The position numbers and the translations under genes are program-made. A stretch of 63,735 nt of DNA, the filler included, from Folioceros fuciformis (taxonomy: Eukaryota), in the NCBI GenBank assembly GCA_049999805.1. It is 11 parts of 11 records of this genome, joined end to end, with 100 filler letters (N's around TTAATTAATTAA, not from the genome) between each part and the next. Parts side by side here need not be neighbours in the genome. Positions count along the whole stretch, not along the records: positions 57,210 to 58,774 come from JBNGIO010000513.1; 10 more parts are not named here. One strand, 5' to 3'. The notes below the pieces were generated by a model. The model saw only the letters and a list, made by a program, of their open reading frames with translations. It was not told the DNA's origin and ran no database searches. Shown piece by piece: positions 3,797 to 61,984 of this stretch (position 1 is its first letter; the number at the start of each line of letters is the position of its first letter).

Positions 3797-5359
3797 ATGG
3801 GCGTCATACCCACCCGTTGGGAAACCTGGGCCGCTAACTTGTGCCAGCACCTCCATTGCGCCTTCAAACTGGGCCTGCAGCCACGTCGCCTCCCACAGGC
3901 CGTCCGGCCCTCTTCTCTCCTGGCCTCTTTGTCTCTTTTCACAGGGTCTCCAGATCCTCTTCATCGTTTTGACCTGGCCATGAGCGAAGACCAGGTCTCA
4001 AGGCGCTTGGATGGTGTCCCTGTCTACACCGTCAGCAACTCTGCGAACGAGTTCGTCTTGGTGTCTGACCTCAACAGCCAGAAGTCGCTTGGCGTTTTCT
4101 GCTTCCGACATGAGGATGCTGAAGCTCTCCTGTCACAGGTTGTTCGCACTTCACAGATATCTGAACCTTCGTGTGGGGTTGCTGGTCTGTAGGTGGCCTT
4201 ACTTTAGAACGGTTGCGCAGGTGAAAGACCGGGAGCCTATTTTGGGACGTGGTGCCAAGGTCGTGGCGGTGTCTCTTGACAAGGTAGCCTGAGGTGCGAG
4301 ATTTTTGGAAGTCTGCAAGTATAAGCTGAACACGAACGAATTACTGGACCAATGCCCCTCCCGGTTGATGCATAGGTCTACCAGCTAAATACAGAGGGCA
4401 TTGCATTCAGGTTCCTGCCGGATCCACGTCAGGTGAAAAATGCTCTTGAGGTAGGTTGTGGTCAGTAAAGTTGCTCTTGTGTATGCTCTGATTCTTCCCC
4501 TGATACCTTCTGACTATGACCCTCAAGTTCCAGGCACGAGCGAAAATGGGGGACCCTGGAAGGTCGTTCGATGGCGTGCCTGTCTTCCAGGTTGGTGCTA
4601 TACCTTCTCTCCCCAAAGGCTTCCTCTGCACTCTACCCTACTTTGTTGCAGCGCAAATGCACTAGTTGGGGATTGCACCCTGGCAAGAGGAGGGTTTCCT
4701 TCTGGGAAATGTCTCTTTAAATCAAGGCTGTGTGTGATAGCTCGAGTTTCATCTCATTTGTGCAGTCAGGGAACTTGATCCTACGGAGCAACAATCGACG
4801 CTTCTGTCCTATTTTTTTCTGCAGGGTTAGTCTGTATATCCTGCTTTGTCTGCCGCTATTTCTTGGTACTTCATCCTGTGGTGACGAATTTAGTTTCAGG
4901 GTATGGTGGTGTTCAAGTTAGTTTTATAGTTTTTATATTCTGGGATGCAGGAGGACCTTGAAGGAGCACTAACTCGAGCCTTCAAGCAGCAGCAGCGTGT
5001 GAATCCGTCGCTGAGAGTAAATACTGACATTCAGGTACTTAAGTCTAGGTCTGTTGACGGTTGCCATCGGTAGAAGTTGGACCTGCCTACTTCAGTGTAT
5101 CTGTTCATGTTATCAGGTGGGAAGCTTCGAGGATGTTTTGAAGCGAATGGAGGTATGTTTCATCCTCTTTGCAGCATCCTATCAGAACACCTGGTCAAAA
5201 TAACGTGTGGACTGACAGTTGTCTGTCACAATTTTGCAGAGTAGCAACGAAAGTTCCGGGTGGGCAGATCTTGTTTTTGTTCCTCCGGGTATGGATGCCT
5301 TCTCGATCCTCGGCAGAGGTCTATCTCAGTCTAAAACCTCTGAATCAGTTACCACCTGA
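3797..5359 (+). CDS. TIC22: Chloroplast import component Tic22-like, about 278 aa, 8 exons: 3797-4138, 4221-4283, 4376-4450, 4534-4590, 4766-4825, 4951-5034, 5117-5152, 5240-5359
   Basis: RLDGVPVYTVSNSANEFVLVS, AKVVAVSLDKVY, AFRFLPDPRQVKNAL, FDGVPVFQ, PIFFCREDL, WADLVFVPPG; all introns GT-AG and in frame. Confidence 0.92.
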
Positions 5360-7433: not shown

Positions 7434-8635
7434 CACTTGCTTTCTTCCCCTCACAGTCCAGGACCTATGCCAACACCTCAGGATTAGTTTCCGAAGGCCG
7501 AAGAGCCATTTCGGCTGGAAGCCAATTCTGCTGAATAAGCTGCTGATTTCAAGCCCGGTTCCGGCTGCTGATCGCACTTCTTCTCACCTCTTCCCTATCT
7601 TCTCCCACTGCTCATGCTCCTCCCATGGAGGGGAGATCAGCCACCATGGGGGAACAGTTGCAGGGGAAGGCTTTACGGGCAACCATCCAGCAAGGAAGAG
7701 ATGGCATCCGCAAGATCTTTGAGATCAGGCATCCTTCAAGGTCTCAGGATAGCTTAATAGGTGGTGGGTACTTGTGGTGGTAGGGTCAGCAGGTTGTCGC
7801 ACTAGCTCATTAATATTGGCGGCGGGATGTGCTAGGAAAGTCTAAATAAGTGGCTGGTGACAGCCGGCTAGGCTAGTTGTCTTATTAAAATAATAATTGT
7901 CAAGCTAGAGAGAGGTGAGGTAAGAGAGAGAGAGGCTCCTATAAGATAGAGAGAGCCCCTAGGAGGCAGGGCGTCACTTTACGATCTCTCTCGGGCTGCC
8001 CCCTGCCTGGATATAGCAATGTGTGCTAGCTGTGCATTTGTGCAGCGTCTGGTAAAGCTTTGAGAAGTAGTGACCAGGGTTAAGAGCTGGGTCCCTTTAA
8101 TTCTTGATCATGCTCTCCGTGTCGTGCCCCATGTTCTGTCATTCTTGTTTCCTCGCAAGGCTGGAGTGAGTGCCGACCATGCTTGCATGGTGTCTTGTAG
8201 GATCGTGGGTGGCGGCATGCTCTTCTTTGGAGTTAGTCTAGTGACTCTTGCCGAGTGGGGGAGTCAATAGGGAAGTGTAGAAGGTAGTGGTGTTGTTGTT
8301 GATGCTAAGTGCTGGAGTGAGTGAGTGAAGTGAGTGAGGGAAGTCGCAGATTTGAGAGGTTAATGTCGTTGTAGTGACTGGAGTACATTTGTGGGCACCA
8401 AAAGAGGTGCAGTTGACTGCTGGACAGCGAGGACTGTCCCATGCCTCATCAGAGCTGGAGAGGAGCCCTTGAATCCGTCATCGAGTCGATTGAGTTTGAC
8501 CCTCCATCCATAGCAGCGAGGAACCCCATCGCTCCTTGGTGGGAACGAAACCCAATGTCTCAACGACAATGGGATAAGTGTGGCCACTAAAGGTTAAACC
8601 CGTTGGCAATCAACACTCGGTGTTTTGCCGCCACA
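7434..8635 (+). mobile_element. Gypsy LTR family A copy, ending ...GCCGCCACA
   Basis: About 1.2 kb colinear with the inverted copy at 55774-56965; terminal part matches 30114-30643 and 30744-31197. Confidence 0.75.
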
Positions 8636-8645
8636 CACGACAATT

Positions 8646-9885
8646 TTAGCATTGGACAACCCCTGTTGTTTGGTTAGCAACCCTACCCACCTGGTTGCTG
8701 CAACCACCCATGCCCATGGAATTTTGCAGAATGGGAGGGTGAGCTGTCTTGGGGTATTGCTGACCTAGCGGGACCTCCTGGATATGGTAGGAGTCCTCCA
8801 TGGGCCACTCCTCTTCCTCCGCCTCATAGGTCAGTAAGTGCACCTTGGCCACTTGACACTGGGACTTAGTGTGCCCTTGCTCACCACATGTGGAGCAAAA
8901 CAGATTGGCACGGCCACTAGTTGCAACCCTCCTCCTCTCATGTTCCTTGACAGCATGAAGATGAAATTTCTCAAACTTACTCATCATCTCCTTCATCTTG
9001 GACTCCTGCTGCTCCATCTTCTTATCTGTAGCCTCAGCCTCCTTCTTGACCTGCTCCACCTCTTTCTTGGCACTAGCCACCTCTTGCTTGGCCTTGGCTA
9101 GATCCTTGACTCCCTTTATCTCCTTCTTCCTCTTAGCAACATCTGCCCCCTTTTTCTTCCTCCTCTTCTTGGAAGCCTCGTCCTCCGAGGACTCCTCTTC
9201 CATGCTATTCTCCGCTGAAGATGAAGAACTCCCCGATGTTGATCCTTCTGAAAAATCACTTTCCTCGGAGGAGCCTTCATCCAAGGAGGATGACTCCTTC
9301 TTCTTCTTCCCTTTCCTAGACTTCTTCTTCTTCCTGTCCTTCTCTTTCACCCTCTCCCTCTCCTTCTTATATTTCCTCTTGCTCCAAGGGTGGGATTCTT
9401 CATAGTTAAGGGCTGCCTTGATGGCCTTGTCCACGTCCTTCTCCGCAAACAGCTTCACATGGCCCCCTCATCTTGGACCCTAGGCCACTAGCAAACCACT
9501 GGATAGCTTGCAAGTCAAAATGAGGCCCACAGCGGTCTCGTAGGCCATGAAACCTCTCCACATAGGCCTGCAGGGTTTCCTTCCTTCTCCTCCTCAAGGA
9601 CTCCAACTTGGACAGCACATAGCCCTCTACATCTATCCCCCCAAAACCTCTCGCAAAAGGTCCTCTTTAGCACATCAAAGGTTGCTGGAAGAGTGCCGAA
9701 CTTGAGGTACTCCCTCCGGTACCACTTGGTAGGCCCTCCACGAAGCACTCCATAGAACAATTGGGTGCGCTGCGCGTCTGCTGATTCCTAATTAGCAATG
9801 GTCAACTGTTCAAATCGCTCCACAAACTCATCCGGATCCTCATACCTCTTCTTCTCTCCATACAAAGGGTGCGGCTGCTTGGTGA
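8646..9885 (-). mobile_element. Degenerate Gypsy-type gag with CCHC zinc knuckle
   Basis: ETLQAYVERFHGL...QWFASGL, an acidic/basic low-complexity tract, and CSTCGEQGHTKSQC; frameshifts. Confidence 0.75.
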
Positions 9886-10457
9886 AGACGAAGATTGAAG
9901 GAGTGAGTGAAGAGAATGTCTAAGTGAGTTGAGAAGAGAAGGAGAGGAGGGCGGCCAATCACTGAACGGGATGCGAGGTGTGAGGCAAGAGAGGAGAAGT
10001 GTGGCTGATCACTGAATGCGATGAGAGGTGAGAGGTAGGAGATTGAGATTGAGGAGAAGAACTAACTGCAAATAACTTAAGAGGATTGCTGAGAGATCGA
10101 GGAAGATTGTGGAGGATTGCTGGAAATTGAAGAGGATTGATGAGAGATTGAGGAAGATTGTGAAAGATTGCTGGAGACTGGAGATGAATTTTGGAAGATT
10201 TCTAAGGGATTTCTGGGCATTTGTGGAAGATTGTTGGGGATTGAGGGAGAGTGCTAAGGATTGCTGAGGGATTGCTGGAGATTTGTGGACATTGTTGGAA
10301 GATTGAAGACATTTGGAATCAAGCCTGAGAAACAAGATGTGAACCAGAGCTCTTGTGTGTTTTGCATGTGTGGAGAGTCTTGCATGTATATGTGAAGGAG
10401 TGTGACTGCTTCGTGGGGTCTTGTTTCCCAAGGATTGGCATTTGCATGTGTGGAGAG

Positions 10458-10900
10458 TGTGGAATGATCCTTTAGACCCAAGAATTACCAAAAGGTCCAC
10501 ATTAACCTTTATTGTCATTGCAGCCTTGAGATTCGTTCCCAAGGGAGTGATCTCGTGCCAAGGCAGTCAAGTCAACTAAACTACCCTAACGCGCTAATAG
10601 AATTCAACCTATCAGCCCCTACATAAACCTAACAACGACTATAGCAGTTAGACCTAGCTCCACAGCTTTATTCTTAGCACCAACTACCTCAGCAGCTGAA
10701 AAAGAAACTCCTACCCCAATGCCAATCTCCAACCTCAACTCCACTTTCCAGCCTCAACTCCACTCTCTAGCCTCAACTCTAGCCTAACACTAAGCTCCAA
10801 CTCCACACTTCAGCACCCTGAAATGTGCAACACAACTCTCCAACCCATGGAATTTGCAACACAACCGCCTTCCCTACTTGCAGCCTTAAGGCAGAGATGC
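10458..10900. mobile_element. LTR-like family B fragment starting TGTGGA
   Basis: Diverged homolog of 63397-63735 and of 62085-62245; right boundary approximate. Confidence 0.5.
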
Positions 10901-11100
10901 GAAGTCTTCGGCTGGATATTCACTCTCGTGTGGCAGCGGAAGTCGTCTGCCTCTCTAGTGAAGTAAAGAAACAGGACCTCGGGTCAAATCTCTCATCAAT
11001 TACTATGTAATCCTCCTATTGTGCTCAAAGATGCCACTGGTGCTTGATTATATCTTTTCAAATTTGAAGTTGGTTTTCTGAACAAGCTTTACTGTTTCTA

Positions 11101-11800
11101 GTAGCAACATCACTACAGAAAAAGAGAAAAAGGTTAGCAAGTTCAGCAATTGCACGAGATGCATGGCCAAAGATGAAGAGGAAAGGAAGAACTTTGTAGA
11201 TTACTGAGCAAGAGCCTACTTGAGCAGTGGAAATTGACTTCGAAAGGCTGGAGAGGCTAGCCCAAGATGAAGACAATTTGAATGCTATCCGAAAGAAAGC
11301 ACACGCAACAAGGATTCGGTCTACAACTTTCAACCTGCATGTGGATATTTTACATCCTACTTTGGTCATCACTTGTGATGCTCAAATTAGAGAAGTTGAT
11401 GAAGCTTGGATGAAAAGCTTGGTGAGGTAGATGCAACCAGGATTTGTCAAGGAAGGTATCTTACCCCTTCTTTGTATGATTGACCCTAAGCAGGTAGCTA
11501 AGAAGGAGGACGTCTCCTTAGACAATATTACAGCTGAACAATATCACATGGGTGTGTTGAGTGGGAACCATTGTTTTGCTACCACGCAAAAACTACACCA
11601 TATGTTTCCAACCGAAGACAAATGCAAATGGATGGATTTTCATGTTTACATTGGCCTTACAAAATGAGGAGATGAGGGTTATGGGAATGGACCACAATGT
11701 GTATGCGGACAAGAGAAAAAGACGAGGTTTCATCAAGCAGATCAAGTATATTCATGATGAGCTTGAGATCTTTTCCCCGACCCATTATGTCATCACTTAG
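11101..11800 (+). pseudogene. Decayed ORF with ParB/Srx-like domain
   Basis: Read-through: KKRKR...QIREVDEAWMKSLVR*MQ...ILPLLCMIDP...GVLSGNH(C)FATTQKL...VYIGLT/NEEMRVMGMDHN; 3 in-frame stops and 1 frameshift. Confidence 0.6.
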
Positions 11801-12622
11801 AAAGTCTGTTGGAGTTTTGCATCTGTGTGAACTTTCTGTGCAAATTGTGACTACATAAGTTATTCACTCATAGTAGATATGTGCATAGAAAGGGTTAATC
11901 CCTTGCATTTTAACTAAAGAGACAGTTAACAGGTGAAAAGTTCTCACGAAGGAACAATTGGAGAGTACGGTTTTTGGTGGTTAACTTTGTGCAAAGTTGA
12001 TAACGGTTTAGGAATGACCATCCAGGTGGTTGGTGCAAATGAATGCACAGAGCTAAGGTGCAAAAAGCGAGTTAGAGTGTTAAGTTGCATCTGGGCCAAA
12101 TGAGCACAATTGTTACCATGTTCCAAGGAAGGAAAAGTTTTGGTTAGATTAAAAAAGTATTAGTCTGTAGCATCAAAATCCAAGAACGATTGTTAAGAGG
12201 CTTGTTAACTTGAACAAGAATGTAAAGAGGGTGGATGTGAGGGTTTGGGGTGTTGGAGTTGGATGGTGATGAGTTGGGAAAGGACCTCCTTTTGAAACTG
12301 TGTATGTTTCTTGTAAGTTATCGGGTAGCGCGGTCTTACAGAATGAGGGTTCTAATTGAGAAATTTTGAAGTTTCACGACAATTATGGGATGAAATGAAC
12401 GTGTAGAATTGTGCAATGTCCAGTTATGCAATAGACGAATCGGATTGAGAGAAGTGGCTAAGGTCTTAAAGTTGGGGAATCTATGGCAAGGAGAGTGTAC
12501 GGGATTGAATAATGAGGTTTTTAAATTTTTTGGAAACATGTCGTTCTGAAGTTCAATGTCCATGGAGCGTTGTAAGGCGATGGGCTTTAGGGTGGTGTTT
12601 GAGAGAACTTTGGCAAGTGACA

Positions 12623-13963
12623 CATCAGCTGATACTTCCTTATATATCTGTTGCAAGTATGTATTTGCCAATTGCCAACGAGATGGTAATTGAAAGAAGG
12701 CCTCAACAACTTAAAAAACTCCTTACAACTCTCACTTTCCACAATATTAAAAGGCAACGACATCTCATATAAAGCTTTAGCAAAAGAAACTTGTAACTTT
12801 GCATTTTCCTCACAGGACATAATATCTACAAATGCATTTGGTGCTGTTTTCTTCCCACTCGTGCAGGCACCTATGGAAATAGCAGTCAGAGTACCTTGTT
12901 CAAATCTTGGTTGCACACCGGCCTTCATTATAGCATTTTTCACCTCCGCCACCACATTTTGTAACTCCTGTGCCTGGTCACTTGCTAAAAAACTTGGACA
13001 TGCACCAAGTAAATGGAACTTCAAGCATGAAACATTTTTATTTGATAGGACTTGGGAGCAAAAGTTGTATTGTCGTTTAACTTCATTGCCACCCTGGATT
13101 ATCTGAAACAAATCTCTAGCCCAACTTTTCTTGGTATTACATGGCCTTTTTCCAGAAACTTAGTGGAAGGGCACTGGGTCCCCTTTTAGCAGGTCGTCTA
13201 CTATGCTCCATGTTTAGCAACCTGGACCTGGCACATCACAAAACAAAGCATTTAGATACCTTCATATATCTTCAGATAACACATCACAAAACATAGCATC
13301 CAAATAACATGTGTGAGAACAACATGGTTGCTGTTCTTTCAGCAGCATGCAGAACAACATTGTGTGAGAACCGCATGCATGTGAGAAAATCTGCGAGAAA
13401 ACTGCGAACAACATGCATGCAAGAAAACCTGCAAGAAAACTGCAAACAGAATGCATGCGAGAAAACTGCGAACAACATGCCTACGAGAAAACCTGCGAGA
13501 AAACTGCGAACAACATGCCTACGAGAAAACCTGCGAGAAAACTACGAATAGCAGCACGTTAGTCTGTGCACTAAAGGTACTCCAGGCAGGGTTTGTAGAT
13601 GGGCGATGCTTCTTCGAGCTCAAAGCTGCACGATGAAGTACACGAAAACTAACAATTCTCATCAAGAACGATGGCAGAACGCGCTACCGAGATTGGAGAA
13701 AGTGCACCAGAAAATTGAGTGTGTTTGTACGCACGCTTCTCGGATTGTATTTTATGGTAATTACTGAGTTGAAAATTACCATAAACTGTATTTTTATTTT
13801 ACATATATATGTAATTTTACAATATATAATATAATTACATGATATGTAATTATATTTTTCTTTACTATAAAATGTAAGTATAAAATAAAATTTTACTTTA
13901 TAATAGTAATTACGATAGTAATTACCACCCAAAATGGTCTTACCCGTAATACCCACAAGCCTA
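12623..13963 (-). mobile_element. 5' part of a hAT-like DNA transposon (BED finger transposase remnant, subterminal repeats, TAGG terminus)
   Basis: KRQ(Y)NFC...LKFHLLGAC BED finger and LPFNIVESESCKEFFKLLRPSF; putative end TAGGCTTGTGGGTATTACGGG at 13963. Confidence 0.75.
13300..13550. repeat. Tandem repeat of about 38 bp (GAAAACTGCGAACAACATGCCTACGAGAAAACCTGCGA)
   Basis: Several imperfect copies upstream of the hAT transposase remnant. Confidence 0.85.
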
Positions 13964-14514
13964 AGCCAGGCTAGGCGGTCCCCGGAACTGAGATAGTACT
14001 CGGTCAAAATGACACCCTCACGGTGTGGCAATCCATACCTCTGCGTGAACGCTTTTTCGTCATTGCCTGCAATTGATACCTTACGATCGCAGGGGCAGTC
14101 GCACCGTGGACGACACATGGGGACAAAACCCACTGCACTGTGGCAATGGAAACGCTAGCATATCGGATCTTGAGCTTCAGAGGCATTTCTTCAGATAGTA
14201 CACTCATCTCTTCACCTAGTAGAAAAGATCGAAGCTTGCTTTTCTCATCGCCGAATTCAACATGAATAATTTGACCCAGCGAAGTTAACTCAAACCTGGA
14301 CTGGCGGGGAACGGAAAAGGTGTATCAATCAAACGAATGAAATTTGGGAAGAACAACTACGATTCCGTTGATTCATCCTTCTGGGCTAAACACGGCTTAA
14401 CATGCCGTTTCGTCATGAAGGGTGGATGGGTGACACTTGCCACACTTGCAGATTCTGTGTTATGTACCACTTTGAACGTATAAAGGTACGTCAGGATTTA
14501 CCCAATATAACCAA

Positions 14515-17500
14515 TCATCTAGCTTCCCCCAGCAGTTTCTCCAACGAGCTAAGAAACTCCAAAAATTCACCCACGTTATCCTGAACCTGTAACAGAAGGT
14601 AAAAATTTAGAAGACTTTGCTCGGATGTTCGACAAAGGGGGTTATTCCGTTCAATCAGTCCTTGCCCAGAAGCTTTACCTTCATGGTCTTGCTGTACGCT
14701 TGCCACAAACTGGGATCTCCTCGAAAGAGCTCCAAAAGAATCTACACATCACCAGTTTTGAAACGTCAGCGAAATTGTGATCAGATCCCACCATAGAAAA
14801 ACCACCTGCACGTTCTAACCTCTGTCTTCTTGAGAAGAGTAGCTAACACCACTATCCATTCCCGAAACCCAACAGCTCTCATGTGATTAAGCAGAAACTC
14901 CGCATCCAATCGACTTTGCACTGAATCCATATTGAACTGCCATCATTCGAACGTTCGTTTTGTCAAAACATGAGCACACACAACCAATTAAAATCTACTG
15001 ACTGATTTCTTCGGCGAGTTAGCACACCCTTTCTCCAATGACTTGAAGAGCAGATGAGAAATCGTCCAACCGCGCTGATTTCCCCCTCTCGCTCTGCAAA
15101 AATTCCTACATAAGAGGTCTGCATAGTCAGCCCCTCCAAATGTTCATCTTCAAGGTCATTACATCGAAGCAGGGACATCAGGTGGTATTAAGCGTCTCAC
15201 AGTCAAGTCAAACTGAGTGCTCCGAACGAATGACACAAGCGCCGGGAGCTCCTTCCGGACCATCAAGGAGATTGCATGTTCTCCGAGAATGTTCTTCACC
15301 GTCAAGTAGTGCATGTTCAGGTCCAATGGTTGGGACCTGACATTGGTGGAGTGTTAGCCAGAAACAGGCACATGACGGTCTAGATTTTGACACCACAAAC
15401 TCTCGTTTTCTCCTTAACCAGACATTAGGGACCTACACAAGCAGTTCTCCTGACTCAGTAGGATTGTGGACGTACGCTGGGGTTGAGCCTTTGAAACCAA
15501 GGAAAAAGGTTGTCAAAAGGCCGCTGTTGTTCCTGTCTGCTTCCTTCTCAGAAGATTCGTTTTCTTTTCCACACCTGAGTAAGAACCTCACCTGCGAAAA
15601 AAATGATATCCCAGTATTAGAAGGTAATTACTCATTACGCGTTCGATATCACTTACTGCCTTACTTGCTACAAAAGCATCTTACCAACTCTCCTGCCAGT
15701 TCATACATAGAGACTTCAAGAGTTGCCTGCATACACCAAGCAAGAAATTAAGCGACCCGAGCAACCTATAGCACAACCTTCACATAAAAACAAGGCAGGC
15801 TTTACATACTCCTGCTCTAAGGGCCTGCTCAGCACCTGTAGCAACCGGATGGCACTCAGTTGGCTGGTTACAGGGCCCTCCAATTTCTCAATGACCTGCA
15901 GCAACAAATTAGCCATACTGCCTGCACACAGCCTGCTCCACGACGTCCACACTACTAGTCCTTATAGATCAAGGGAGCAAATGATATTCTCCAGATAGAA
16001 CTCACAAGCTTAAACCACGTAAAGCATCTACCCACCAGGATGTAACAGGTAGCTGTGCGATAGCATCTCCTTTCAAAACACTCTTCAAAGAGTCTGAATG
16101 CAACCAAATTGCAAATCACACACAAGCCCACTCCCTTAATCTCAAAAGAGCATGCTGCACAAACTACAGATCGGTTCATATGTTTCTTATTTAAATTATT
16201 CGTAAATTATTCGTCAGCCTGAACATAGACCATAACACATACAGCCAGCCCCAAAAACTGTGATTCAAACATCATTCAGAACCAACAGGTTAAACTTACA
16301 TACTGGGTAGACTTCCCAGCTGCAGCAAAGAGCTCAGACCAATGTCGCGAATCTGTTTTCCTTGCAACACTGACGACTACGTCCAGATAGTCTGGAAAAT
16401 GCCGTATAAGGTCACAGACAAGCTGTAGGAGCTGGGGCACCACCTTTAAAGGATTGGATTTCCCTCGTTTTCTGTTCAGGCTCTGACTGCAGAGCACCAA
16501 TGAAAGTTAGCTCGCCATACAAAGAACCCATAGGCAAACAAGACCTCCATACCTGCAATACATTGCAGCAAGGCTTCTACTTTTACCTTGACATAGCAGC
16601 ATCAAAGACGGTAAAGAGCAACCACTCAAGTGAATGCGAAAAATGAGGCCTTCCAGCAGACAGCTTTGCAAGCTGCACTGCTTCCTCCATTTTGTCTCTC
16701 TGCCAAAGGGAGGGGACAGCAATGCTACACAGCGCCAACACAGAAGGAAAAAAATTGCAACAAGAAGAAGATCCTGATACAGCTGGGGGCACCTACCTGC
16801 AACAGATGCCGTAATAAGCAAGGCAGAATGGGTTGGGCTTGAGGTGTGGGCTCAAAGCAGGGCATTTCAGAACAAGCTGACAAAGCAAGACGCTGAGACA
16901 CGCCAACAATCACCCCAGCACTTGGGCAAAGACCCAATGGATAAACCTCCCTATCAAAATCAAGTTCAGGATCCAGCTGCAGTGCGCCACAAGTCAAATA
17001 AGTTGTCACCGTGGCAGATGGACAGAGACACTCATCAAGTAGAAATCAACATTTTCACGTAAATGCCACCATGCTGATAAGGAAAGTGAGTTAAGCTGCT
17101 TTAGGGCACCAATGGTCGTCCACTGGAAATAAAAGGCTTTGCTTCACCACCTGCAAGAGATCTTGTGCTTGAGAGCAATCCTCCTCTGAGGATGGATACC
17201 AAACCTGACCAGAGGATGGCACCTCATCAAATTATTACAGCGGCCGACCTTCTACTGAGAATAGTAATGGTGTGTATGGGCACAAGTCTAGGGCCCTGAC
17301 CACTTACTTGCATTCCACGATGTCCATATGCCCACCAAGGAACCTCCTTGATCAGATTGGCTTCTTCCTTTGGTCGTCCACAAGTGAGCCAGAACCGCTC
17401 TACACCCGAAACAAGCCTGCGCTCGCTGCCCTGGTCAAGGTCTAGCAGCGATAACTCACCATCTGCACGAAGTACCATACACCTGCATGGCTAACTTCCT

Positions 17501-24597: not shown

Positions 24598-25420
24598 TCA
24601 TAGGAGAGTGGTCTACCTCATGCCCATGAGTGTCCGAGCTTTTGCGAATTGCTCCATAGAGAGACCCTTGGTAAGAATATCTGCAAGATTCTAACTGATG
24701 TGAACTTTGACAATATGACCCTCTTGTCTTCCAACACGTCTAGAATAAAGTGATACTTCACTTCCACATGTTTGGTCTTCGCATGAAACACTGGATTCTT
24801 CGCCAATTGGATAGCACTTTGGCTATCACAATGCAACATTAGCAGCTCAACCTTGATCCCCAAATCTCCCTAGCATTATGCACGATTGCAAACGAGATCC
24901 CCATGAGACTGCCCCTTCACTACACATGAAGACATAACTTGATGTGGACCTCATTTTGTCCATATCCCCTATATAATCAGCATCCGTATATCCAATGACA
25001 GATGTATCTTCACTACCAAAACACATGCACAAAGCTTTTGTACCATTTAAATACCTCATAACTCCTTTTATTGCCTCCCAATGCTTCTTGCTAGAATATG
25101 GCTCTAATACTAGTTGAAGGATCGTTAGGAGAGCCACATGGTAAAGGAGGAGAGGAAGAAATAAGGAGGAGAGGAGAAAGATAGGTCTCACATTCAGACA
25201 GGTCTCACACTCTGTATCTCAATATTGCAAGGGAGCTCAAAAGGGTATTTATACCCTCTAGAAGAGCTCCCAAGAAAGCTTCACAAGAAGCGCACAGGAA
25301 GCTGCGGAAGAAGCTTCCTATATATTAGCTTAAGCTAATCTAAACAAATGATACTTAACTAGACACTAATCTTAGACTAAACACATTAGTCTAAGCACAT
25401 TGGGCTTTAATAACCCTATA
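24598..25420 (-). mobile_element. Internally deleted Copia: 5' LTR 25115-25420 and PBS joined directly to RT end/RNaseH
   Basis: LTR of the same family as 33196-33478; degenerate tRNA-iMet PBS at 25101-25112 adjoins KKHWEAIKGVMRYL...GYTDAD...HAKTKHV. Confidence 0.8.
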
Positions 25421-33195: not shown

Positions 33196-36100
33196 TGTAA
33201 GATCGCTACAAGAGATACATGGTGAAGGAGGAGAGGAGAAAAGAGGAGAAAGAGAAATCACACTCTCTCAATGAGTCTCAATATGCAAGGGAGCTCAAGG
33301 AGGTATTTATACCCTCTAGAAGAGCTCCCTAGGAAGCTTCACAAGAATCGCACAGGAAGCTGCGCAAGAAGCTTCCTAAAGATTAGCTTAAGCTAATCTA
33401 AACTAATGGTACTTAACTAGACATTAATCTTAGACTAAACACATTAGTCTAAGCACATTGGGCTTTAATAACCCTACAACCTCCCACTTCAAGGCCAATT
33501 TACCTTCATAGGAGAGTGGTCTACCTCATGCCCATGAGTGTCTGAGCTTGTGCGAATTGCTCCATAGAGAGCCCCTTGGTAAGAACATCTGTAGGGTTCT
33601 GTCTGGTGTGAACTTTGACAAGTTGTACCCTCTTGTCTTCCAACACCTCTCGAATGAAGTGATACTTCACGTCCACATGTTTGGTCTTCGCATGAAACAT
33701 TGCATTCTTCGCTAATTGAATAGCACTCTGGCTATCATAATGCAACATTGGCAGCTCAACCTTGATCCCCAAATCTCCCACTAAACGAGCAAGCCACAAG
33801 GCTTCCTTGCAAGCCTCAGTCGCTGCAACATACTCGGCCTCTGTGGTAGATAGCGTTATGCACGATTGCAAACGAGATCGCCATGAGACTGCCCCTCCAG
33901 TGCACATGAAGACATAATCTGATGTGGAGCTCCTTTTGTCCATATCCCTGCATAATCAGCATCTGTATATCCCACTACATATGCATCTTCACTACCAAAA
34001 CATAAGCACAAAGCTTTCGTACCATTCAAGTACCTCATAACTCCTTTCACTACCTCCCAATGCTTCTTGCCAAGGTTTGACATAAACCTGCTAACCACTC
34101 CCACTGCAAAGGCAACGTCAGGACGTGTAGCAATCATTGCATACATCAAACTCCCTACAGCTGATGAGTATGGAACCTTCTCCATTTCAGCTTTGTCCTC
34201 CGCAGAGCTTGGGCAATCCTTGCTTGAAAGTTTCACATATGGAGGCAATGGAGTACTGAATACCTTCCCCTTCGCCATGTTGAAACATTGAAGCACCTTG
34301 TTAATGTATTCAGTCTGAGACAAGTAAAGCAAACGCTTTTGTCTGTCTCGACGAATATGCATGCCAAGAATATGGCTTGCCTCTCCCGAGTCTATCATGT
34401 CAAAGCGAGCATTCAACTTTGACTTCAAGGCTGAAATCTCATCACTGCTATTCCCAGCAATTAGCATATCATCCACATATAGGACCAGAATGAGCAAGCT
34501 TCCATCCTTAGCTTGCTTTGTATAGAGGCAATGATCTTCATCGCTACGCTTGTAGCCTTGAGAAAGCATAAATGAGTGAAACTTGTAATACCACTCCCTA
34601 AGTTCCTGCTTCAAACCATAAAGGCTCTTCTTTAACTTGCACACTAGATTCTCTTTGCCCTTCTCAATGAAACCCTCTGGTTGTTGCATGTATACCTCTT
34701 CCTAGAGATCACCATGCAGAAATGCTGACTTCACATCCATCTGGACAAGTTCCATGTCGTGCCTCGCAACCAGACCAAGAACACATCGCAAGGTGGTCAT
34801 TTTGACAACTGGTGAGAAAATCTCATCAAAGTCAATACCATGTTGTTGCTTAAAACCCTTAGCAACCAATCGCGCCTTGTACTTGGGTTTGCCATAATGG
34901 GGTATGTCCTTCATCTTATACACCCATTTGCATGGCAACGCCTTCTTGCCCCTAGGCAATCGAACCAACTCCCAAGTTTGGTTCTTGTGGAGCGAATCCA
35001 TCTGCGACTGCATCGCCTTCTCCCACTTGTCCTTGTCAGTCACTGACATGGCCTCTTGATAACAAGAGAGCTCCCCACAATCCATCAACATGACATAATC
35101 AAGAGATGCAACATACCTGTCAGGAGGACGTGAAATCCTTCCTGACCTACAAAGCACTGGCACCTCGACTGGAGATGGTTGCACTCTCTTTACTTCTACA
35201 AGGGGAGGAACTTGTTCCTGCACATCACGACGTTCAACCTGCGCGGGATGGTAAAGTCCATCTTCTTGGAAGACCACCCGTCGCACCTCCACAGTTGGAG
35301 TAGGCTTCTTGTGCATATTGGTCTCATTGAAGAACACGTCATTGCTGCGAACCATCCTCTTGGCCTCTAGATCCCACAGATGGTATCCCATCTCACCAGA
35401 TTCACCATAGCCAAGAAAATTACATTTTCTTAACTTAGGAGCCAACTTGTCCCGAAACTTCTTCGGAACATGGTAGTATGCCTCGCAGCCAAACACTCGT
35501 AGATGCTTGTATGACGACTTCTTTTCAGACCACATTTCCTCTGGAACCTGTTCATCCACAGCCGTATTAGGAGATCTGTTAATAAGATGCACCGCCGTAC
35601 ACACTGCTTCGGCCCAAAATCTGTTAGGCAATCCAGAGTTTGACAACAAACTACGCATCCTCTCCTGGATGGTCTTGTTCATCCGTTCAGCCACACCATT
35701 CTGGGAGGAGTATACGGCGCAGTCAATTCTCTCTTGATTCCCTTGGAATCACAGAATGACTGGAAAGCCTTCGAAACATACTCTCCCCCATTGTCTGTTC
35801 TTAGACACTTCAGTCGGAGACCAGACTGATTCTCCACAAGGGTGACAAATTTTTGAAACACTGTCTAAACATCATCCTTTTTCCTCAAAGGATAAACCCA
35901 CACCTTGCGTGAGAAATCATCTATGTAAGTGACAAAATAAGATGCACCGCCTAAAGATATAGTGGGCATAGGTCCACAAATGTCACTGTGAACCAACTCA
36001 AGAGGTTTACTTTTGTGTTTACCTCTTGCTCTATGTGGTGACTTCGTCTGTTTCCCATACAAATAGTGCTCACACACGGAGAAATTGGAGAAGTCAAAAG

Positions 36101-48559: not shown

Positions 48560-49132
48560 TCCGGGACTTGGGTGCCCCTGGCCGCTGAGAGGCCAACAGC
48601 CTCCGGCCTGGGCACGTCCGGTGCTGATGGAGCCCCGGGGCAGATGCCCCTCGTGGTGTGGCAGCACCCTCTCGGTGCCCCGAACTCCCAACACCTCGAG
48701 CTTTCGGCTCCTTTGCTCTCGAAGCTCTGTGCTCCTCCCAGATGTCCTTTGTCATGGATCTTTGTCCGGGGCACCCGCAGACATGACCATCTCGCTCCAC
48801 AACTTGAGTTCCACAACCTGGGCTCTGATACCACTTATAAGACCGCTCCAAGAGTTACATGGTGAAGGAGAGGAGAGGAGGAGGCAAGGAAGGGAGGAGA
48901 AAGAGAGGTCACACTCTCACAATAGAGTCACTATACAAGGGAGCTCACTCAAGGAGGGATTTATACCCCCTAGAAGAGCTCCCTAGGACGCTTCACAAGA
49001 AGCGCACAGGAAGCTGCGCAAGAAGCTTCCTACAGATTAGCTTAAGCTAATCTAAACTAATGGTACTTAATTAGACACTAATCTTAGACTAAACACATTA
49101 GCATAAGCACATTGGGCTTTAATAACCCTACA
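48560..49132 (-). mobile_element. Copia 5' LTR 48836-49132, PBS and leader
   Basis: PBS TGGTATCAGAGC at 48822-48833; LTR of the same family as 33196-33478. Confidence 0.85.
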
Positions 49133-57209: not shown

Positions 57210-58774
57210 GATGAACAACATCTGCAGCACAAGTGTGGGAGAAATGGGGGACCTGGTGAGGACCTGTACGAGACATAAGTTGAAAGGCCAGGCAGACCAA
57301 CCATGTCATGTCACTACATGAAGATCCATAGCACGGCCCAAGGCTGAGCACCGCTGCTGAATTGTGACTTGCGGTGCTGCTGTAGAATGGGTGTGAAAAC
57401 CCATCACTCGCTCCCGTTCCTCCACATTGGGTTCCTCCCACTGTTGTTTGTCAGTGTTCAACAACATGCCAGCTCCCTACCCTCTATATGCATGAGAGCA
57501 GGGATAGCTCACCAGCGTAGGAAGGGTACTGCGTGGCTGTCCTGGGACGTTGGTGCTGTACCAAGGCTTCCTCTCTGCAGCACGGACAGGCCGAGGCTAG
57601 TGATTGCTGTCTAGGACTGTGACCAGGCTCAAGGATGGGTCTCGAGTGGTACCAGCCAACACCAATTCTAGCAAGGGTTGGGGTGCAAGGTTGGTCCAAA
57701 AATTACGCAACCGATGTGCGTAACTACCCACTTGTACAGCATCAAGTAACAAAGGAACTCCCACATGCTATTGGATCACAACAATGTCCTGTTGAACCTG
57801 TAGTCGAGAATCTAGCTGGGCTGGAGTGTTCTCCAAAATGTAAGCACAGGTAGGGTTGTGGGCTTGAATCCACACCAAGATGCATCGTAGATCCCAGAAA
57901 AGAGCAAAGCGCGTATCTTGCAAACCTGCTCCAGCGCCAGCTGAGGAAAACCCTTGGCATTCCTACCCAGCCACTACGATGTCTATGGGTGGTAGGCACT
58001 GAATGTGCCTAACCTGGATGTAGGACCACTAGAGGAGCATGGTGGAGGAGAGGAGAAGAGGAGGCAGAGAGGAGAGGAGAAAAAGAGGTCACATTGAGAG
58101 TAGTTGGCAAGGGAGCTCAAGGGGGTATTTATACCCTCTAGAAAAGCTCCCTAGGAAGCTTCACAAGAAGCTCACAGGAAGCTGCGCAAGAAGCTTCCTA
58201 CAGATTAGCTTAAGCTAATCTAAACTAATGATACTTAACTAAACACTAATCTTAGACTAAACACATTAGTCTAAGCACATTAACTAGACACTAATCTTAG
58301 ACTAAACACATTAGCCTAAGCACATTGGGCTTTAATAACCCTACACTGGATGTACTGGACATCATGTGGAAGGGCTGTAAACATGGCAGCCGTGGCAATG
58401 AGTGGCAGCTGTGCTGGAAATCGGGGTTGAAGTCCCTAAATTCGAAAAGCAGCTAGCTTCCTAGTTGTGGGACACTTGTCACAATAAATGTATTGGGCCA
58501 CAACCAGCCCATTCTACAGCATGGCTTCCAATCTAGTGCATAAGCCCCCAAATAGTTCCAGAACTGTTAAGCCAGGTGTAGAGGGTGTCCATGCTATGAT
58601 GGACTAATTGACATCGCCGAGCGTTGGTTGCTCATCTAGTGCAGGAGGTGGCTGCATCCTTTGAAGGGCCAATTGCACATGTGGGGTGGCCACGAGCAAG
58701 ACGTCTACAGATAGGTCACCCGTGTCATTTTCAACAACACATCCCTCAAGCACGAGGTTGCTACTAATGACTGT
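57210..58774 (-). pseudogene. C5-cytosine DNA methyltransferase domain, intronless, probably retrotransposon-borne; split by a solo LTR
   Basis: One frame after removing the LTR and one TSD copy: motif I GLTVLELFGGLC (from 58573), IV IDIVVAG*ECQGFS (Cys 57957-57959), VI YILENT, VIII AHRLRNFWTN, TRD LPTLV, IX EERERVMGF, X LGRAMD. Confidence 0.9.
58019..58345 (-). mobile_element. Copia solo LTR with 5-bp TSD
   Basis: TG...CA ends flanked by CTGGA at 58014-58018 and 58346-58350; internal duplication of about 41 bp. Confidence 0.93.
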
Positions 58775-58876: not shown

Positions 58877-61800
58877 CGAGTTCTCTTTTCGAATAGAGGC
58901 TCAAAAAGGCAGCCACCACGACAGGGATCACAGAACCAGAATGCTGGTGGCAGTGGGAGTTTCAAGCGCCGCCCAACATCATCTGCTAACAAGAAAAAGG
59001 GCTCTTGCAACTGGTGCCTGATCCCAGGCCATTGGGAGGCGGAGTGCAGGAAAAAGAAGGCGGGTGAGCCTCGCCGTACAGTTCCACCTGAAGCCAACAT
59101 GGCATCTAGAAAGCCTAGCACAGTTCTAGCAGTATATATGGTGTCCACACCACAATACAGACATGCATGGTACCTCGATTCAGGTGCATCGTCACATATT
59201 TGCCATACTAGATCAGCATTCTCTGAGTACAGAAAGGTCCCAAATGGTCAGGTTGTGCTCCTTGGTGACGACCGAGGTTTGCCAATTAAAGGAATAGGCA
59301 AAGTTCCTGGCCAAACCACAACTGGTAGAGTTGAAATCTTGCTAGAGGTTCTGCATGTACCAACCTTGGTCAAGAATTTGGTGTCAGTTTACCTGTTAGA
59401 CGTACAGCATAAATTGAGCACCATGTGTGAAAATGGTCAGTGCCATATTGTTGACCAGGCAAACAAGTCAGAAGTTTTTGCAATTGGGACACCAGAACAC
59501 AATCTTTACAAGCTGGATATTCAGTATGGGCATGGGAGACTATTGGCGAACCTGACACAGGCACAGAAGGATGAGCAGGATGCCAGGCTGTGGCATGCGC
59601 GATTGGGACATACTTACTTTGACAAATTGAATATGATGGTCAACAGTGAAACACTTTACCGGGAAAGGTTCTTGATGAAGCCTGCGGAGAAGCCTTTCTG
59701 CGAGGCGTGCGTGTTTGGCAAACACCACCGAGCTCCATACAAAGACAGTAATCCAACACGTGCTACCAAGCTCTTGGAGCTAGTACACTCAGATATATGT
59801 GGACCTATGTCCACAATGTCACTTGGTGGAGCCAGATATTTTCTGTCATTCATAGATGACTGGAGCCGATACACGGTAGTGTATCCCATCAAACAGAAGG
59901 GTCAAACTCTGGATTGTTTCATGGAGTTTGTTATGTTTGCACAGAGACAAACAGGTCAGCTGCTGAAAGTCTTGAGAAGTGATAACGGAGGCGAGTACAT
60001 CTCAGATGCCTTCACCAGCTTTTGCAAGAGACAAGGCAAAGCCAGACAGCTGACGACTCCATACACGTCAACACAAAATCCCATAGCTGAAATTTCCAAT
60101 CGGCATACACAGGAATCAGCAAAAGCAATGCTCCAGCAAGCACGACTTCCGAGAGGATACTGGGCTGAAGCAGTATGTACGACAGTGTACATTAGGAACA
60201 GGGTTCCTACCAGTGTGTTCACAGGAGCAACTCCATATGAGCGCTGGACAAACCATAAGCCGAGAATCAATCATCTCAGAATATTTGGTGCAACAGCATA
60301 TGCTCATCTGTCTGAGGATCAGCGAGTCAAGCTCGACTACAAGGCACACAAGTACGTGTTTGTAGGCTACACGGAAGGAATCAAGGGGTACAAATTGATG
60401 GACCCGCTCACCAGAGGCATAACTCATTGCCGGAGTGTGGTATTCGACGAGTTGTCTCTGCTCGTACCTCAACCTGAGCTTCCAGAGCGGATCCCTGCAC
60501 AGATTGCATCCACAAGTGAGGCATCAGAAAGAGAAAGTAGTGAGGAGACCTTCCAGCACACAAGTACTACAACTCAGTACGCACACGTACCTGCAGTTGC
60601 AATCAACCAGCCTGCAAGTATTTTTCCGGATGACGATGATGGAGAAGCTTCTAATGACACCCAAGCTGAGATAGTTGCTGGTAATCCAAATGAGGAGGAT
60701 ACAGGTGACAGCCATACTGGCAGCCATGAGGAGGCTGTCGATACACAAACTGAACAGGGTTTTTCATCTGAAGTAGAGGTGGAAACAGCTCCAGAAGCTG
60801 TGGGTCCAAGACGAAGCAGCAGGAAGCACACTGCCTCACCCTACGAATGGGTAACACCACCTCTCTCATACAGTTCGTTTCTGGTGCAGGATTATAGTGC
60901 ACCAGATAATCTGTATGAGCCACAGTCATACAAAGAAGCAGTCAGCGGTCCAGAAGCTGCAAAGTGGGCTGCTGCAATTGAATCAGAGTACCAGTCTCTG
61001 ATTGATAATAGGACGTGGGAACTGGTGGACTTACCTGCTGGCAGGAAACCTGTAACCTGCAAGTGGGTATTTAAAAAGAAGCTTGCTGCTGATGGCAGTA
61101 TAGCGCGGTTTAAGGCTCGACTTGTGGCAAGAGGGTATAGCCAGGTGGAGGGCCTGGATTATACAGAAACCTTTTCACCTGTAGTCAGGGCAACCTCTGT
61201 TCGCACATTATTAGCAATTGCAGCACAAAGAGATTACGCCATGGAACACATGGACGTGAAGACTGCTTTCTTGAATGGAACCCTGGAAGAAACGATTTTC
61301 ATGAATCAGCCAGAAGGTTTTGTAGACACCAAGCAGCCAGGAAAGGTATGCAGGCTCATTAAGACAATCTACGGACTAAAACAGTCCCCACGAGCCTGGT
61401 ACAAACGCATCGACACGTACCTTAAGCAGTCAGGGTTTCTGCAATCTGAATCTGACTCAAATGTGTACAAGTTGGAGGAGAAAGACGGAGTAGTCTTTCT
61501 GGCTCTATACGTGGACGATGCTGTCCTCATTGCCAGCAGCCCAAAGATTATGGCCAAGGTCAAATCTATACTCACCTCTGAGTTTTCCATGACTGACTTG
61601 GGGAAGCTCACATGGTTCCTCGGCATAGAAATCTTGCAAGACATGGAACAGCACACAGTCTTCATACATCAGGCTCCGTACATCAACCAGGTGTTAGCTC
61701 GATACAGGATGTCTGACTGCAAACCTGCTGCAACGCCGATGGCCATTGGTGATAAGCTGAGTGTTGAGCAGGCACCTAAAACAGAGACAGAGAGGCAGCA

Positions 61801-61984
61801 AATGGAAAATATTCCATACAGGTCAGCTGTATGCTCACTAATTTACTGTAGAAATTGGACGAGACCTGACTTGTCCTACGCAGTGGGAGTAACCTCTCAG
61901 TTCTTAACATGTTATGGACCAGCACATTGGGCAGTTGTACAGAGGGTGATGAGATACCTGAAGGGCACGCCGAGACTTGGCCTG
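58877..61984 (+). CDS. Uninterrupted Copia gag-pol ORF (zinc knuckle, PR, INT, RT), truncated by gaps at both ends
   Basis: More than 1030 open codons: [56 protein letters not shown]. Confidence 0.95.

What the first reader, a model, noticed from the sequence alone, without database searches (positions are those of the whole stretch)
57210..58774. Hidden complete C5-DNA methyltransferase domain, probably cargo of a retrotransposon
Seen: the ORF track misses it. Removing the solo LTR (58019-58345) and one CTGGA restores a single intronless frame with C5-MTase motifs in canonical order: I (VLELFGGLC), II (YIYCD), III (PHDV), IV (VAG*ECQGFS), VI (ENT), VIII (AHRLR), TL dipeptide, IX (EERERVMGF), X (LGRAMD). 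The frame runs in from the contig edge, as expected for a domain inside a polyprotein. Known: host MET1 and CMT have BAH or chromo domains and introns, and DRM has permuted motifs; none fits. DNMT-carrying retrotransposons have been reported in dinoflagellates and the charophyte Klebsormidium. Inference: this is a relic of a retroelement lineage that encodes its own methyltransferase, in a genome with land-plant-like genes, where I know of no good description of such elements. RT and integrase are not visible because gaps bound the contig.
Basis: partly seen in the sequence, partly recalled or inferred. Interest (0 to 1): 0.88.

Follow-up and report, generated by a model that had tools for sequence, protein, structure and literature searches.

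The report
Dead retrotransposon-borne DNMT3-type methyltransferase fragment
This short contig holds a broken copy of a DNA cytosine methyltransferase that once travelled inside a jumping gene (a Ty3/gypsy-type retrotransposon) in a plant-lineage genome, a kind of element so far described only in one green alga related to land plants and in dinoflagellates.

Summary
On the minus strand of the 1,565-bp contig 57210-58774 lies a complete-in-motifs C5 cytosine methyltransferase domain. It is split by a 327-bp solo LTR (58019-58345; TG..CA ends; 5-bp duplication CTGGA). The two halves align without gaps to residues 720-805 and 805-1040 of an intact relative, so removing the LTR and one duplication restores the frame exactly. 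The frame is not open: it has 8 in-frame stops (7 TAG, 1 TGA).

Sequence profile and predicted fold put the domain with DNMT3A/B, not DNMT1, CMT or permuted DRM. Of 183 relatives, 126 carry the domain fused to protease, RT, RNase H, integrase or a PHD finger. The window copy sits in a supported clade with the order protease-DNMT-RT. Full relatives in metagenome contigs have the A...B-A-B repeats that the 2018 paper describes for KnitGypsy-Dnmt3 of Klebsormidium.

DNA runs of the same organism hold several diverged copies, one of them without the LTR. The copy decayed mainly by C-to-T changes at CWG sites, which explains the TAG excess.

The host is a streptophyte; whether it is a land plant is not settled.

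Verdict: a real relic, and a new member of a known kind.

The parts
58604..58774 (-). In-frame stretch upstream of the methyltransferase domain, running in from the contig edge. It is the presumed linker from the protease. It has no detectable homology and ends at the first TAG.
   Evidence: BLASTP to P0001/P0039 starts only at residue 58-59 of piece A.
58346..58603 (-). N-terminal part of the DNMT3-type domain (motifs I-III). It contains two in-frame TAG codons. A third TAG, at 58604-58606, lies immediately upstream in the linker part.
   Evidence: 50% identity, no gaps, to P0039 residues 720-805. Aligns with the family motif I FGG and the PQD motif.
58346..58350 (.). Target-site duplication CTGGA, right-hand copy.
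   Evidence: Read directly. Both halves end or start on the same residue of P0039.
58019..58345 (-). Solo LTR of a very abundant, probably Copia-type, family. It has TGTAGG...CCTACA termini and is inserted in the methyltransferase frame.
   Evidence: There are 86-95% identical copies at 48858-49132, 33285-33478 and 25227-25418. Two of them lie 525-775 bp downstream of Copia pol on the same strand. Summed contig depth is 8,000-87,000, against about 50-300 for the flanks. A paralogous contig bridges the site with 225 letters where 224 are expected without the LTR.
58014..58018 (.). Target-site duplication CTGGA, left-hand copy.
57309..58016 (-). C-terminal part of the DNMT3-type domain (motifs IV, VI, VIII, TRD with PTL, IX, X), with four in-frame TAG codons.
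   Evidence: PF00145 29.2 bits. 49% identity over 236 residues, no gaps, to P0039 805-1040. 1,307 representative clusters at E<=1e-3.
57210..57308 (-). Continuation of the frame past motif X to the contig edge. It starts with the single TGA. This is the presumed linker toward the reverse transcriptase.
   Evidence: Relatives have Trp at the TGA position. tblastn alignments to L065, L038 and L008 run to residue 263 of piece B. Other copies differ here by small indels (table 4).

Best explanation
The contig is a dead fragment of the pol gene of a Ty3/gypsy-type LTR retrotransposon. Its polyprotein carried a non-permuted, DNMT3-type cytosine-5 DNA methyltransferase between the protease and the reverse transcriptase.

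In intact relatives the element reads gag (CCHC knuckles) - protease - DNMT - RT - RNase H - integrase - PHD finger, framed by split direct repeats A...B-A-B. By inference from the published work on such elements, the enzyme would methylate the element's own cDNA or new insertion. That step is not shown here and was inconclusive for the Klebsormidium enzyme.

The window copy can do none of this. It has 8 nonsense codons and a later insertion of an abundant Copia-type element that has collapsed to a solo LTR. Its decay is dominated by C-to-T changes at CWG sites, the pattern expected from host CHG methylation followed by deamination. That also explains why 7 of the 8 stops are TAG.
For: Shown:
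- The domain is a C5-MTase (PF00145).
- The family profile hits DNMT3A at 2.5e-25 and DNMT3B at about 1e-22. DRM scores 6e-15 to 8e-12, M.HhaI 5e-9, and there is no DNMT1 or CMT hit.
- A family member folds with pLDDT 95.2, and all 50 best PDB fold matches shown are DNMT3A/B/C (TM 0.76-0.80 by target).
- 126 of 183 relatives fuse the domain to retroelement domains.
- The window copy sits in a 98-supported clade with protease-DNMT-RT proteins. All 16 such rows lie in one 39-row clade with support 97.
- The halves meet exactly on P0039 residue 805.
- Element L008 7798-17122 has protease-DNMT-RT-RNase H, then integrase-PHD, with repeats A...B-A-B. The same repeats occur in L003 and L073, so in 3 of 5 loci examined.
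- In DNA runs of the organism, 2-12 contigs overlap each listed site, and one paralog lacks the LTR.
- 29 of the 40 listed variant sites have T/A in the window where other copies have C/G. 20 of those 29 are CWG, against 20% expected (p 2.4e-8).
- At 6 of the 8 stops, most other copies read a sense codon. Relatives have Trp or Gln at the aligned positions.
Against: - No retroelement domain, repeat or LTR of the element itself lies on this contig, so the link rests on homologues that are only 41-54% identical.
- No sequence of Klebsormidium was available, so identity with the published family is inferred from a figure legend.
- The tree was made with FastTree only and has no reference DNMT3, DRM or DNMT1 rows.
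- Copy number comes from summed contig depths, which the tool says is not a copy number. The best DNA runs may also be the assembly's own sample.
- The 40 variant sites are the best-supported of 215, which is a selected set.
- Enzyme activity and self-methylation are inferred, not shown.
Confidence: 0.88

Rival explanations
1. It is a pseudogene of the host's own DNMT3 gene, not of a mobile element.
For: The domain is DNMT3-type. By the text of PMC5890265 and PMC12344493, non-seed plants and charophytes keep a host DNMT3. No retroelement domain lies on the contig.
Against: The best 150 relatives are dominated by polyproteins, and the copy nests among protease-DNMT-RT proteins. The frame is intronless over 412 codons and stays open into both contig edges. 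Several diverged copies exist in the organism's DNA.
Confidence: 0.04
2. The methyltransferase module belongs in this genome to another class of element (DIRS-like, Copia or a giant-virus insert) rather than Ty3/gypsy.
For: The contig shows no context. PMC12344493 speaks of DNMT3 in 'LTR Copia and DIRS' elements. The relatives' repeats are DIRS-like. The window is full of Copia elements.
Against: Every relative with context has the gypsy order PR-RT-RH-IN with a DDE integrase, and none has a tyrosine recombinase. The nearby Copia sequences are on other contigs, and the only Copia-related piece here is the LTR that interrupts the gene.
Confidence: 0.05
3. The gene is alive and the TAG codons are read as an amino acid (recoding or an unusual genetic code).
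For: 7 of 8 stops are TAG and there is no frameshift.
Against: A 1,036-codon Copia frame on the next contig is open under the standard code. A 327-bp LTR interrupts the gene. At 6 of 8 stops the other copies in the same organism carry a sense codon. The TAG excess follows from the CWG-biased C-to-T decay. No RNA holder of the methyltransferase part was listed (see Tried and rejected).
Confidence: 0.01
4. The contig is foreign DNA (bacterial, phage or other contaminant methyltransferase) in the assembly.
For: C5-MTases are common in bacteria and phages. Two of the three Atlas look-alike clusters are viral.
Against: Bacterial M.HhaI and M.HaeIII score 16 or more orders of magnitude worse than DNMT3A. 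The gene is interrupted by an LTR whose relatives lie on three other contigs of the window and which is hugely abundant in the same runs.
Confidence: 0.02

Closest known systems
KnitGypsy-Dnmt3 of Klebsormidium nitens (de Mendoza et al. 2018, PMC5890265; sections and legends read, figures and supplements not seen)
   Same: A non-permuted DNMT3-type domain, intronless, inside the Pol polyprotein of a gypsy-type LTR element. The repeats are arranged as in DIRS (A-internal-B-A-B), seen here in relatives L008, L003 and L073. The host is a streptophyte, and copies are silenced with CHG/CHH methylation.
   Different: No Klebsormidium sequence could be compared. The position of the domain in that element is not stated in the text. 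Here two positions exist (protease-DNMT-RT and RNase H-DNMT-integrase-PHD). The window's host has a much more repeat-rich genome, and the copy is dead.
SymbioDIRS-Dnmt3 and SymbioLINE-Dnmt of Symbiodinium (same paper)
   Same: Retrotransposon-borne C5 methyltransferase, DNMT3-type in the DIRS case. These are the only ones with shown de novo CG methylation.
   Different: They have a tyrosine recombinase or a LINE backbone and a dinoflagellate host. Relatives here have a DDE integrase and the gypsy order.
EpiLTRs of Cymbomonas and Euglena (bioRxiv 10.64898/2026.05.21.726589; passages read)
   Same: LTR elements that carry a cytosine methyltransferase plus a chromatin reader.
   Different: Their DNMT is sister to DNMT4, sits at the 3' end of pol, and comes with a DAM adenine methylase and a chromodomain. 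Here the domain is DNMT3-type, internal, and accompanied by a PHD finger.
Host DNMT3 / DRM of plants
   Same: Same catalytic fold and DNMT3-type signatures (AHR.R..W.NL, LGR at motif X).
   Different: Host genes are multi-exonic single-copy genes. DRM has permuted motifs. The family here often has Glu instead of Pro before the catalytic Cys, and a longer region between motifs VIII and IX.
PHD-finger gypsy elements of green algae (e.g. Gypsy-7a_cRei, bioRxiv 10.1101/2022.06.16.496473; passage read)
   Same: A gypsy Pol with a PHD finger as accessory chromatin module, as in relatives of the window copy.
   Different: No methyltransferase is reported in that element, and in the legend read its PHD finger lies before the integrase.

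Membership tests
C5 cytosine DNA methyltransferase (PF00145) | HMM score above the curated cut-off | tested here: met
   Piece B scores 29.2 bits against 22, E 7.9e-7. Piece A alone gives no hit.
C5 cytosine DNA methyltransferase (PF00145) | Catalytic motifs in canonical order: I FxGxG, IV Cys, VI ENV, VIII RxR, IX, X | tested here: met
   All are present in order in the window copy. In the family, Cys, EN and R.R are nearly invariant. Motif names are recalled from general knowledge of the family.
DNMT3 clade | Closest to DNMT3 by sequence profile and by fold, with motifs not permuted | tested here: met
   DNMT3A 2.5e-25, against DRM 6e-15 or weaker and no DNMT1/CMT hit. All top 50 fold matches are DNMT3A/B/C.
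DNMT3 clade | Placement inside DNMT3 in a phylogeny with DNMT1, CMT, DRM, DNMT4-6 and bacterial references | not testable with these tools
   No reference sequences could be fetched as stored proteins. The tree holds family members only.
Retrotransposon-borne DNMT3 of gypsy type (KnitGypsy-Dnmt3 kind) | Domain lies in the Pol polyprotein with PR/RT/RNase H/DDE integrase | tested here: inconclusive
   Met for relatives: 126 of 183 proteins, and L008. It cannot be seen for the window copy itself because the contig ends 171 bp upstream and 99 bp downstream of the domain.
Retrotransposon-borne DNMT3 of gypsy type (KnitGypsy-Dnmt3 kind) | DIRS-like repeat arrangement A-internal-B-A-B | tested here: inconclusive
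   Present in L008, L003 and L073, not found in L040 and L018. It cannot be examined in the window.
Retrotransposon-borne DNMT3 of gypsy type (KnitGypsy-Dnmt3 kind) | Sequence kinship with the Klebsormidium copies | not testable with these tools
   No Klebsormidium protein appeared by name, and supplements are closed.
Solo LTR of an LTR retrotransposon | TG..CA termini with short inverted repeat, 4-6 bp target duplication, related copies next to pol genes | tested here: met
   TGTAGG...CCTACA and CTGGA/CTGGA. Copies lie downstream of Copia pol on two contigs. An empty-site paralog exists.

The most novel reading that the evidence does not exclude
DNMT3-carrying gypsy elements are not a Klebsormidium oddity. 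They are an old and once prolific lineage of streptophytes that reached land plants. The module was placed at two different points of Pol, and a catalytic loop that usually reads Glu-Cys instead of Pro-Cys has been conserved. The window copy and the hundreds of decayed copies beside a PPR-DYW gene in metagenome contigs would be the first traces of this lineage in embryophyte genomes. If so, retroelement-borne de novo methyltransferases were part of early land-plant epigenome history.
Probability: 0.35. Interest if true: 0.65.

Novelty: new member of a known kind. Interest (0 to 1): 0.5.

Why it matters
Retrotransposons that carry their own cytosine methyltransferase invert the usual picture of methylation as a host weapon against transposons. 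In the papers I could search, they are documented in dinoflagellates, one charophyte, Cymbomonas and Euglena.

This copy shows the DNMT3-gypsy kind in a second, repeat-rich streptophyte genome. The searches around it show that the family is far larger than reported: 1,307 clusters at 50% identity, and 301 loci in a handful of metagenomes. It has two domain orders and a PHD finger.

If the hosts include land plants, the question of what such an enzyme does for the element (self-methylation of cDNA, camouflage or targeting) becomes testable in organisms with good genetics.

The copy is also a clean natural record of CHG-context deamination decay.

Tried and rejected
- No whole genome is held for the window, so other copies could not be sought by tblastn. 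Earlier notes on this genome: none.
- Sequence look-up in earlier findings: nothing.
- Rfam on the whole window: no match.
- Pfam on piece A alone: no hit.
- No RNA holder was listed for the stretch. The one run guessed to be RNA covers only LTR parts. This says nothing about expression.
- The Copia polyprotein search meant to name the organism gave no organism names; the best hit was 60% identity.
- Pfam on 20 further window ORFs gave only Tic22, Copia pieces and weak hits.
- The PPR-DYW protein of L008 has no match in the window.
- Three further flank ORFs of the loci have no Pfam family.
- DNA-level BLAST of the contig against the 80 loci gave only 41-80-nt patches.
- The Atlas search gave one streptophyte and two viral DNA-methylase clusters at 0.90-0.91, which is a lead only.
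- TAG recoding was considered and rejected (see rivals).
- RIP-like CpA bias was considered. 16 of 29 sites are CA but 10 are CT, so CWG describes the sites better.
- Literature: searches found no paper in the held library describing a DNMT-carrying LTR element in a land plant. Subscription journals and supplements were not searchable.

Full report
**What is there**

The window is a chain of 12 contigs separated by N runs and TTAATTAATTAA spacers. The finding occupies one whole contig, 57210-58774, of 1,565 bp.

On its minus strand one reading frame enters at the contig edge (58774) and runs to 58346. After a 327-bp insert it continues, two bases out of phase, from 58016 to the other contig edge.

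The insert 58019-58345 begins TGTAGG and ends CCTACA. It is flanked by CTGGA on both sides, at 58014-58018 and 58346-58350.

The frame is not open. It contains 8 stop codons, 7 TAG and 1 TGA, and no frameshift over about 412 codons.

**Is it a methyltransferase, and is the reconstruction right?**

The downstream piece (B, 57210-58016) reaches Pfam PF00145 at 29.2 bits against a cut-off of 22. The upstream piece (A, 58346-58774) gives no Pfam hit on its own.

Against the intact relative P0039 (1,315 aa), A aligns to residues 720-805 at 50% identity, and B to 805-1040 at 49% identity over 236 residues. Both alignments are gapless and meet on the same residue, which is the one encoded by the duplicated CTGGA. 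P0001 gives the same junction.

**Which methyltransferase?**

A profile of 26 relatives plus the two window pieces was searched against all PDB sequences. The results were:
- DNMT3A at E 2.5e-25, and DNMT3B/3C at about 1e-22.
- Tobacco and Arabidopsis DRM at 6e-15 to 8e-12.
- M.HhaI at 5e-9, and DNMT2 at 8e-6.
- No DNMT1 or chromomethylase at E up to 1.

A family member (P0052) folds with mean pLDDT 95.2 and pTM 0.92. All 50 best Foldseek matches shown are DNMT3A, 3B or 3C catalytic domains, with TM 0.76-0.80 normalised by target for chains that hold only the domain.

The domain is therefore DNMT3-type with unpermuted motifs. I could not build a tree with named reference families, because none could be fetched as stored sequences.

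**Is it retroelement cargo?**

The contig itself shows no RT, integrase or element repeat, so the case rests on relatives.
- The exhaustive search found 1,307 representative clusters at E<=1e-3, 478 at E<=1e-10 and 130 at E<=1e-30. Many are 1,000-3,400 residues long.
- The word-index search for longer proteins listed 36 hits. Most carry precomputed RT, RNase H, integrase, PHD and DNA_methylase families, and Pfam on seven of them gave the domain order.
- I mapped probes for protease, RT, RNase H, integrase and PHD on all 183 proteins held at that point. 126 carry the methyltransferase together with at least one retroelement domain, 55 are methyltransferase-only (many are short fragments), and 2 have RT only.

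Two orders occur. RT-RNase H-DNMT-integrase-PHD is the majority; protease-DNMT-RT(-RNase H-integrase) is the minority.

In a FastTree tree of 171 domain rows, the window copy sits in a 6-row clade (SH-like support 98) with P0002, P0001, P0039, P0040 and the fragment P0038. Four of these are of the protease-DNMT-RT kind. All 16 such rows lie in one 39-row clade with support 97.

Relatives have Trp where the window has its TGA. Alignments to three loci continue to residue 263 of piece B. The frame therefore did not end after motif X but ran on toward the RT.

**Whole elements**

A scan of JGI metagenome contigs with P0039 found 301 loci, of which 80 were kept.

In L008 the element spans 7798-17122:
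- Repeat A lies at 7798-8089 and again at 16646-16937. Repeat B lies at 16469-16653 and 16938-17122, giving the order A-internal-B-A-B.
- One frame holds protease-DNMT-RT-RNase H and the next holds integrase-PHD.
- L003 and L073 show the same repeats. L040 and L018 showed none at the settings used, so the pattern is seen in 3 of 5 loci examined.

The legend of Fig. 4 in de Mendoza et al. 2018 says of KnitGypsy-Dnmt3 that the repeats are arranged as in a DIRS element while the domains are those of Gypsy. The legend of Fig. 1 defines the DIRS arrangement as A-coding-B-A-B (PMC5890265, sections 6 and 9 read; figures and supplements not seen). The relatives of the window copy thus match the published kind in domain class, host ORF and repeat layout.

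The window copy is only 41-50% identical to these loci at protein level.

**Copies in the organism**

Six coded runs hold parts of the stretch, and I laid four of them.

In the two DNA runs of one sample, which may be the assembly's own sample:
- The methyltransferase parts are covered by 2-12 different contigs at each listed variant site. Each contig is at roughly 7-15x, with summed depths of about 45-300.
- The LTR part reaches 8,000-87,000.
- A 1,654-nt contig (present in both runs) matches both sides of the insertion and has 225 letters between 57790 and 58347, where 224 are expected without the LTR and one duplication. It is a paralog with an empty site.

The domain therefore belongs to a family of diverged copies, and the LTR came later into this one. 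Depth is not a copy number, so 'several to a dozen' is rough.

The LTR has 86-95% identical relatives on three other contigs of the window. Two of them lie 525-775 bp downstream of Copia pol on the same strand. It is therefore most likely a Copia LTR.

**How it died**

Of the 40 best-supported variant sites listed (of 215):
- 29 have T or A in the window where most other copies have C or G.
- 6 go the other way.
- 5 are transversions.

Of the 29, 20 lie in CWG context (13 CAG, 7 CTG), 3 in CG and 6 in CHH. CWG makes up about 20% of cytosines, giving a binomial p of 2.4e-8.

Six of the 8 stop codons lie on such sites, and most other copies read a sense codon there (five Gln, one Trp). The remaining two are not among the rows shown. 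CpG observed/expected is 0.38 in the methyltransferase part, against 0.51 for the window as a whole.

This is what deamination of methylated cytosine in CHG context would give. CHG methylation of silent transposons is the plant pattern, and is reported for KnitGypsy-Dnmt3 copies (PMC5890265, section 9). The mechanism is inferred; no methylome was available.

It explains the TAG excess without any recoding. The same style of decay is seen in the metagenome relatives: 49 of 49 full-domain copies have stops (median 4) with a median of 0 gap columns, and 159 of 234 stops fall at Gln or Trp positions.

**Host**

The only clear host gene in the window is a Tic22 exon on the first contig. Its identities are 79% to the hornwort Nothoceros, 77% to Coleochaete and Selaginella, 80% to Spirogloea, and 72% to a cluster that includes Marchantia.

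That makes the organism a streptophyte. It does not settle land plant versus charophyte.

The very abundant LTR family and the 323 Mb of contigs in one run argue for a genome larger and more repeat-rich than I recall for Klebsormidium. No relative above 54% identity exists in the protein collections.

Next to the L008 element lies a PPR-E-DYW gene, a land-plant-typical gene class (recall). It hints that the closest known relatives sit in embryophyte DNA. Three other flank ORFs gave nothing.

**Function**

In living relatives the enzyme is made as part of gag-pol. The catalytic Cys, the EN of motif VI and the R.R of motif VIII are kept in the family, in 157 and 152 of 171 rows for the latter two.

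The published hypothesis is methylation of the element's own cDNA. De novo CG methylation was shown in yeast only for the Symbiodinium DIRS enzymes, and the Klebsormidium one gave no signal, which the authors call inconclusive (PMC5890265, section 10). For the window copy no function remains.

**Comparison and novelty**

The kind is known:
- DNMT3 in gypsy-type elements of a streptophyte (PMC5890265).
- It is cited as 'streptophytes (Gypsy-DNMT3)' in bioRxiv 10.64898/2026.05.21.726589.
- It is cited as DNMT3 'embedded within retrotransposon structures' in PMC12344493 (passages read).

Six searches of the held library found no description in a land plant, or of the two domain orders, the PHD companion, or the Glu-Cys loop. 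Figures, supplements and subscription journals were not visible, so these may be in print.

I file the finding as a new member of a known kind. It is a correct and careful observation of a dead copy, of moderate interest, whose main value is the large and mostly unlabelled family it points to.

Noticed in passing
family alignment A1 and 171 domain rows (relatives, not the window): The residue before the catalytic Cys is Glu in 96, Pro in 49 and other in 15 of the 160 rows with a recognisable motif IV (WECQ 66, WPCQ 42). Cys, EN and R.R stay conserved. The window copy has the Glu form. A Glu-Cys catalytic loop is unusual for C5 methyltransferases (the latter from recall).
   Followed up: partly
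relatives P0001-P0183: The same DNMT3-type module sits at two places in gypsy Pol. RNase H-DNMT-integrase-PHD occurs in 105 of 171 rows and protease-DNMT-RT in 16. All 16 of the latter lie in one 39-row clade of the domain tree (support 97).
   Followed up: partly
L001-L080 (metagenome contigs): All 49 copies with a full-length domain match have in-frame stops (1-12, median 4) but a median of 0 gap columns. 159 of the 234 stops lie where P0039 has Gln or Trp. This is the same decay by transitions without indels as in the window copy.
   Followed up: yes
L008:19388-20776 (+): An intronless PPR protein with E motif and DYW deaminase domain lies 2.3 kb from a DNMT-gypsy element. DYW-type PPR genes are typical of land plants (recall), which hints that the host of these contigs is an embryophyte.
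   Followed up: partly
window 58019-58345; also 48858-49132, 33285-33478, 25227-25418: The LTR family that split the gene is extremely abundant in the organism's DNA runs: summed contig depth 8,000-87,000, against roughly 50-300 for the flanks. It has CpG observed/expected of 0.07.
   Followed up: partly
window 57296-57308: Around the single TGA, most other copies differ by small insertions and a one-base deletion. The window copy may therefore carry a short, compensated frame disturbance here.
   Followed up: no
window 58877-61984 (+): A Copia gag-pol frame of 1,036 codons is open from one contig edge to the other. Its best match in 5.8 billion proteins is only 60% identical, the next 49% or less. 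The host lineage's Copia elements are therefore poorly sampled.
   Followed up: no
window 3662-4192 (+): An exon of a Tic22 chloroplast import protein (Pfam 1.1e-21). It is 79% identical to the hornwort Nothoceros, 77% to Coleochaete and Selaginella, and 80% to Spirogloea. It is the only clear host gene found in the window.
   Followed up: yes
window 1-63735: The window is 12 separate contigs (1.6-24.5 kb) joined by runs of N and TTAATTAATTAA. Neighbouring features on different contigs are therefore not physically linked.
   Followed up: yes
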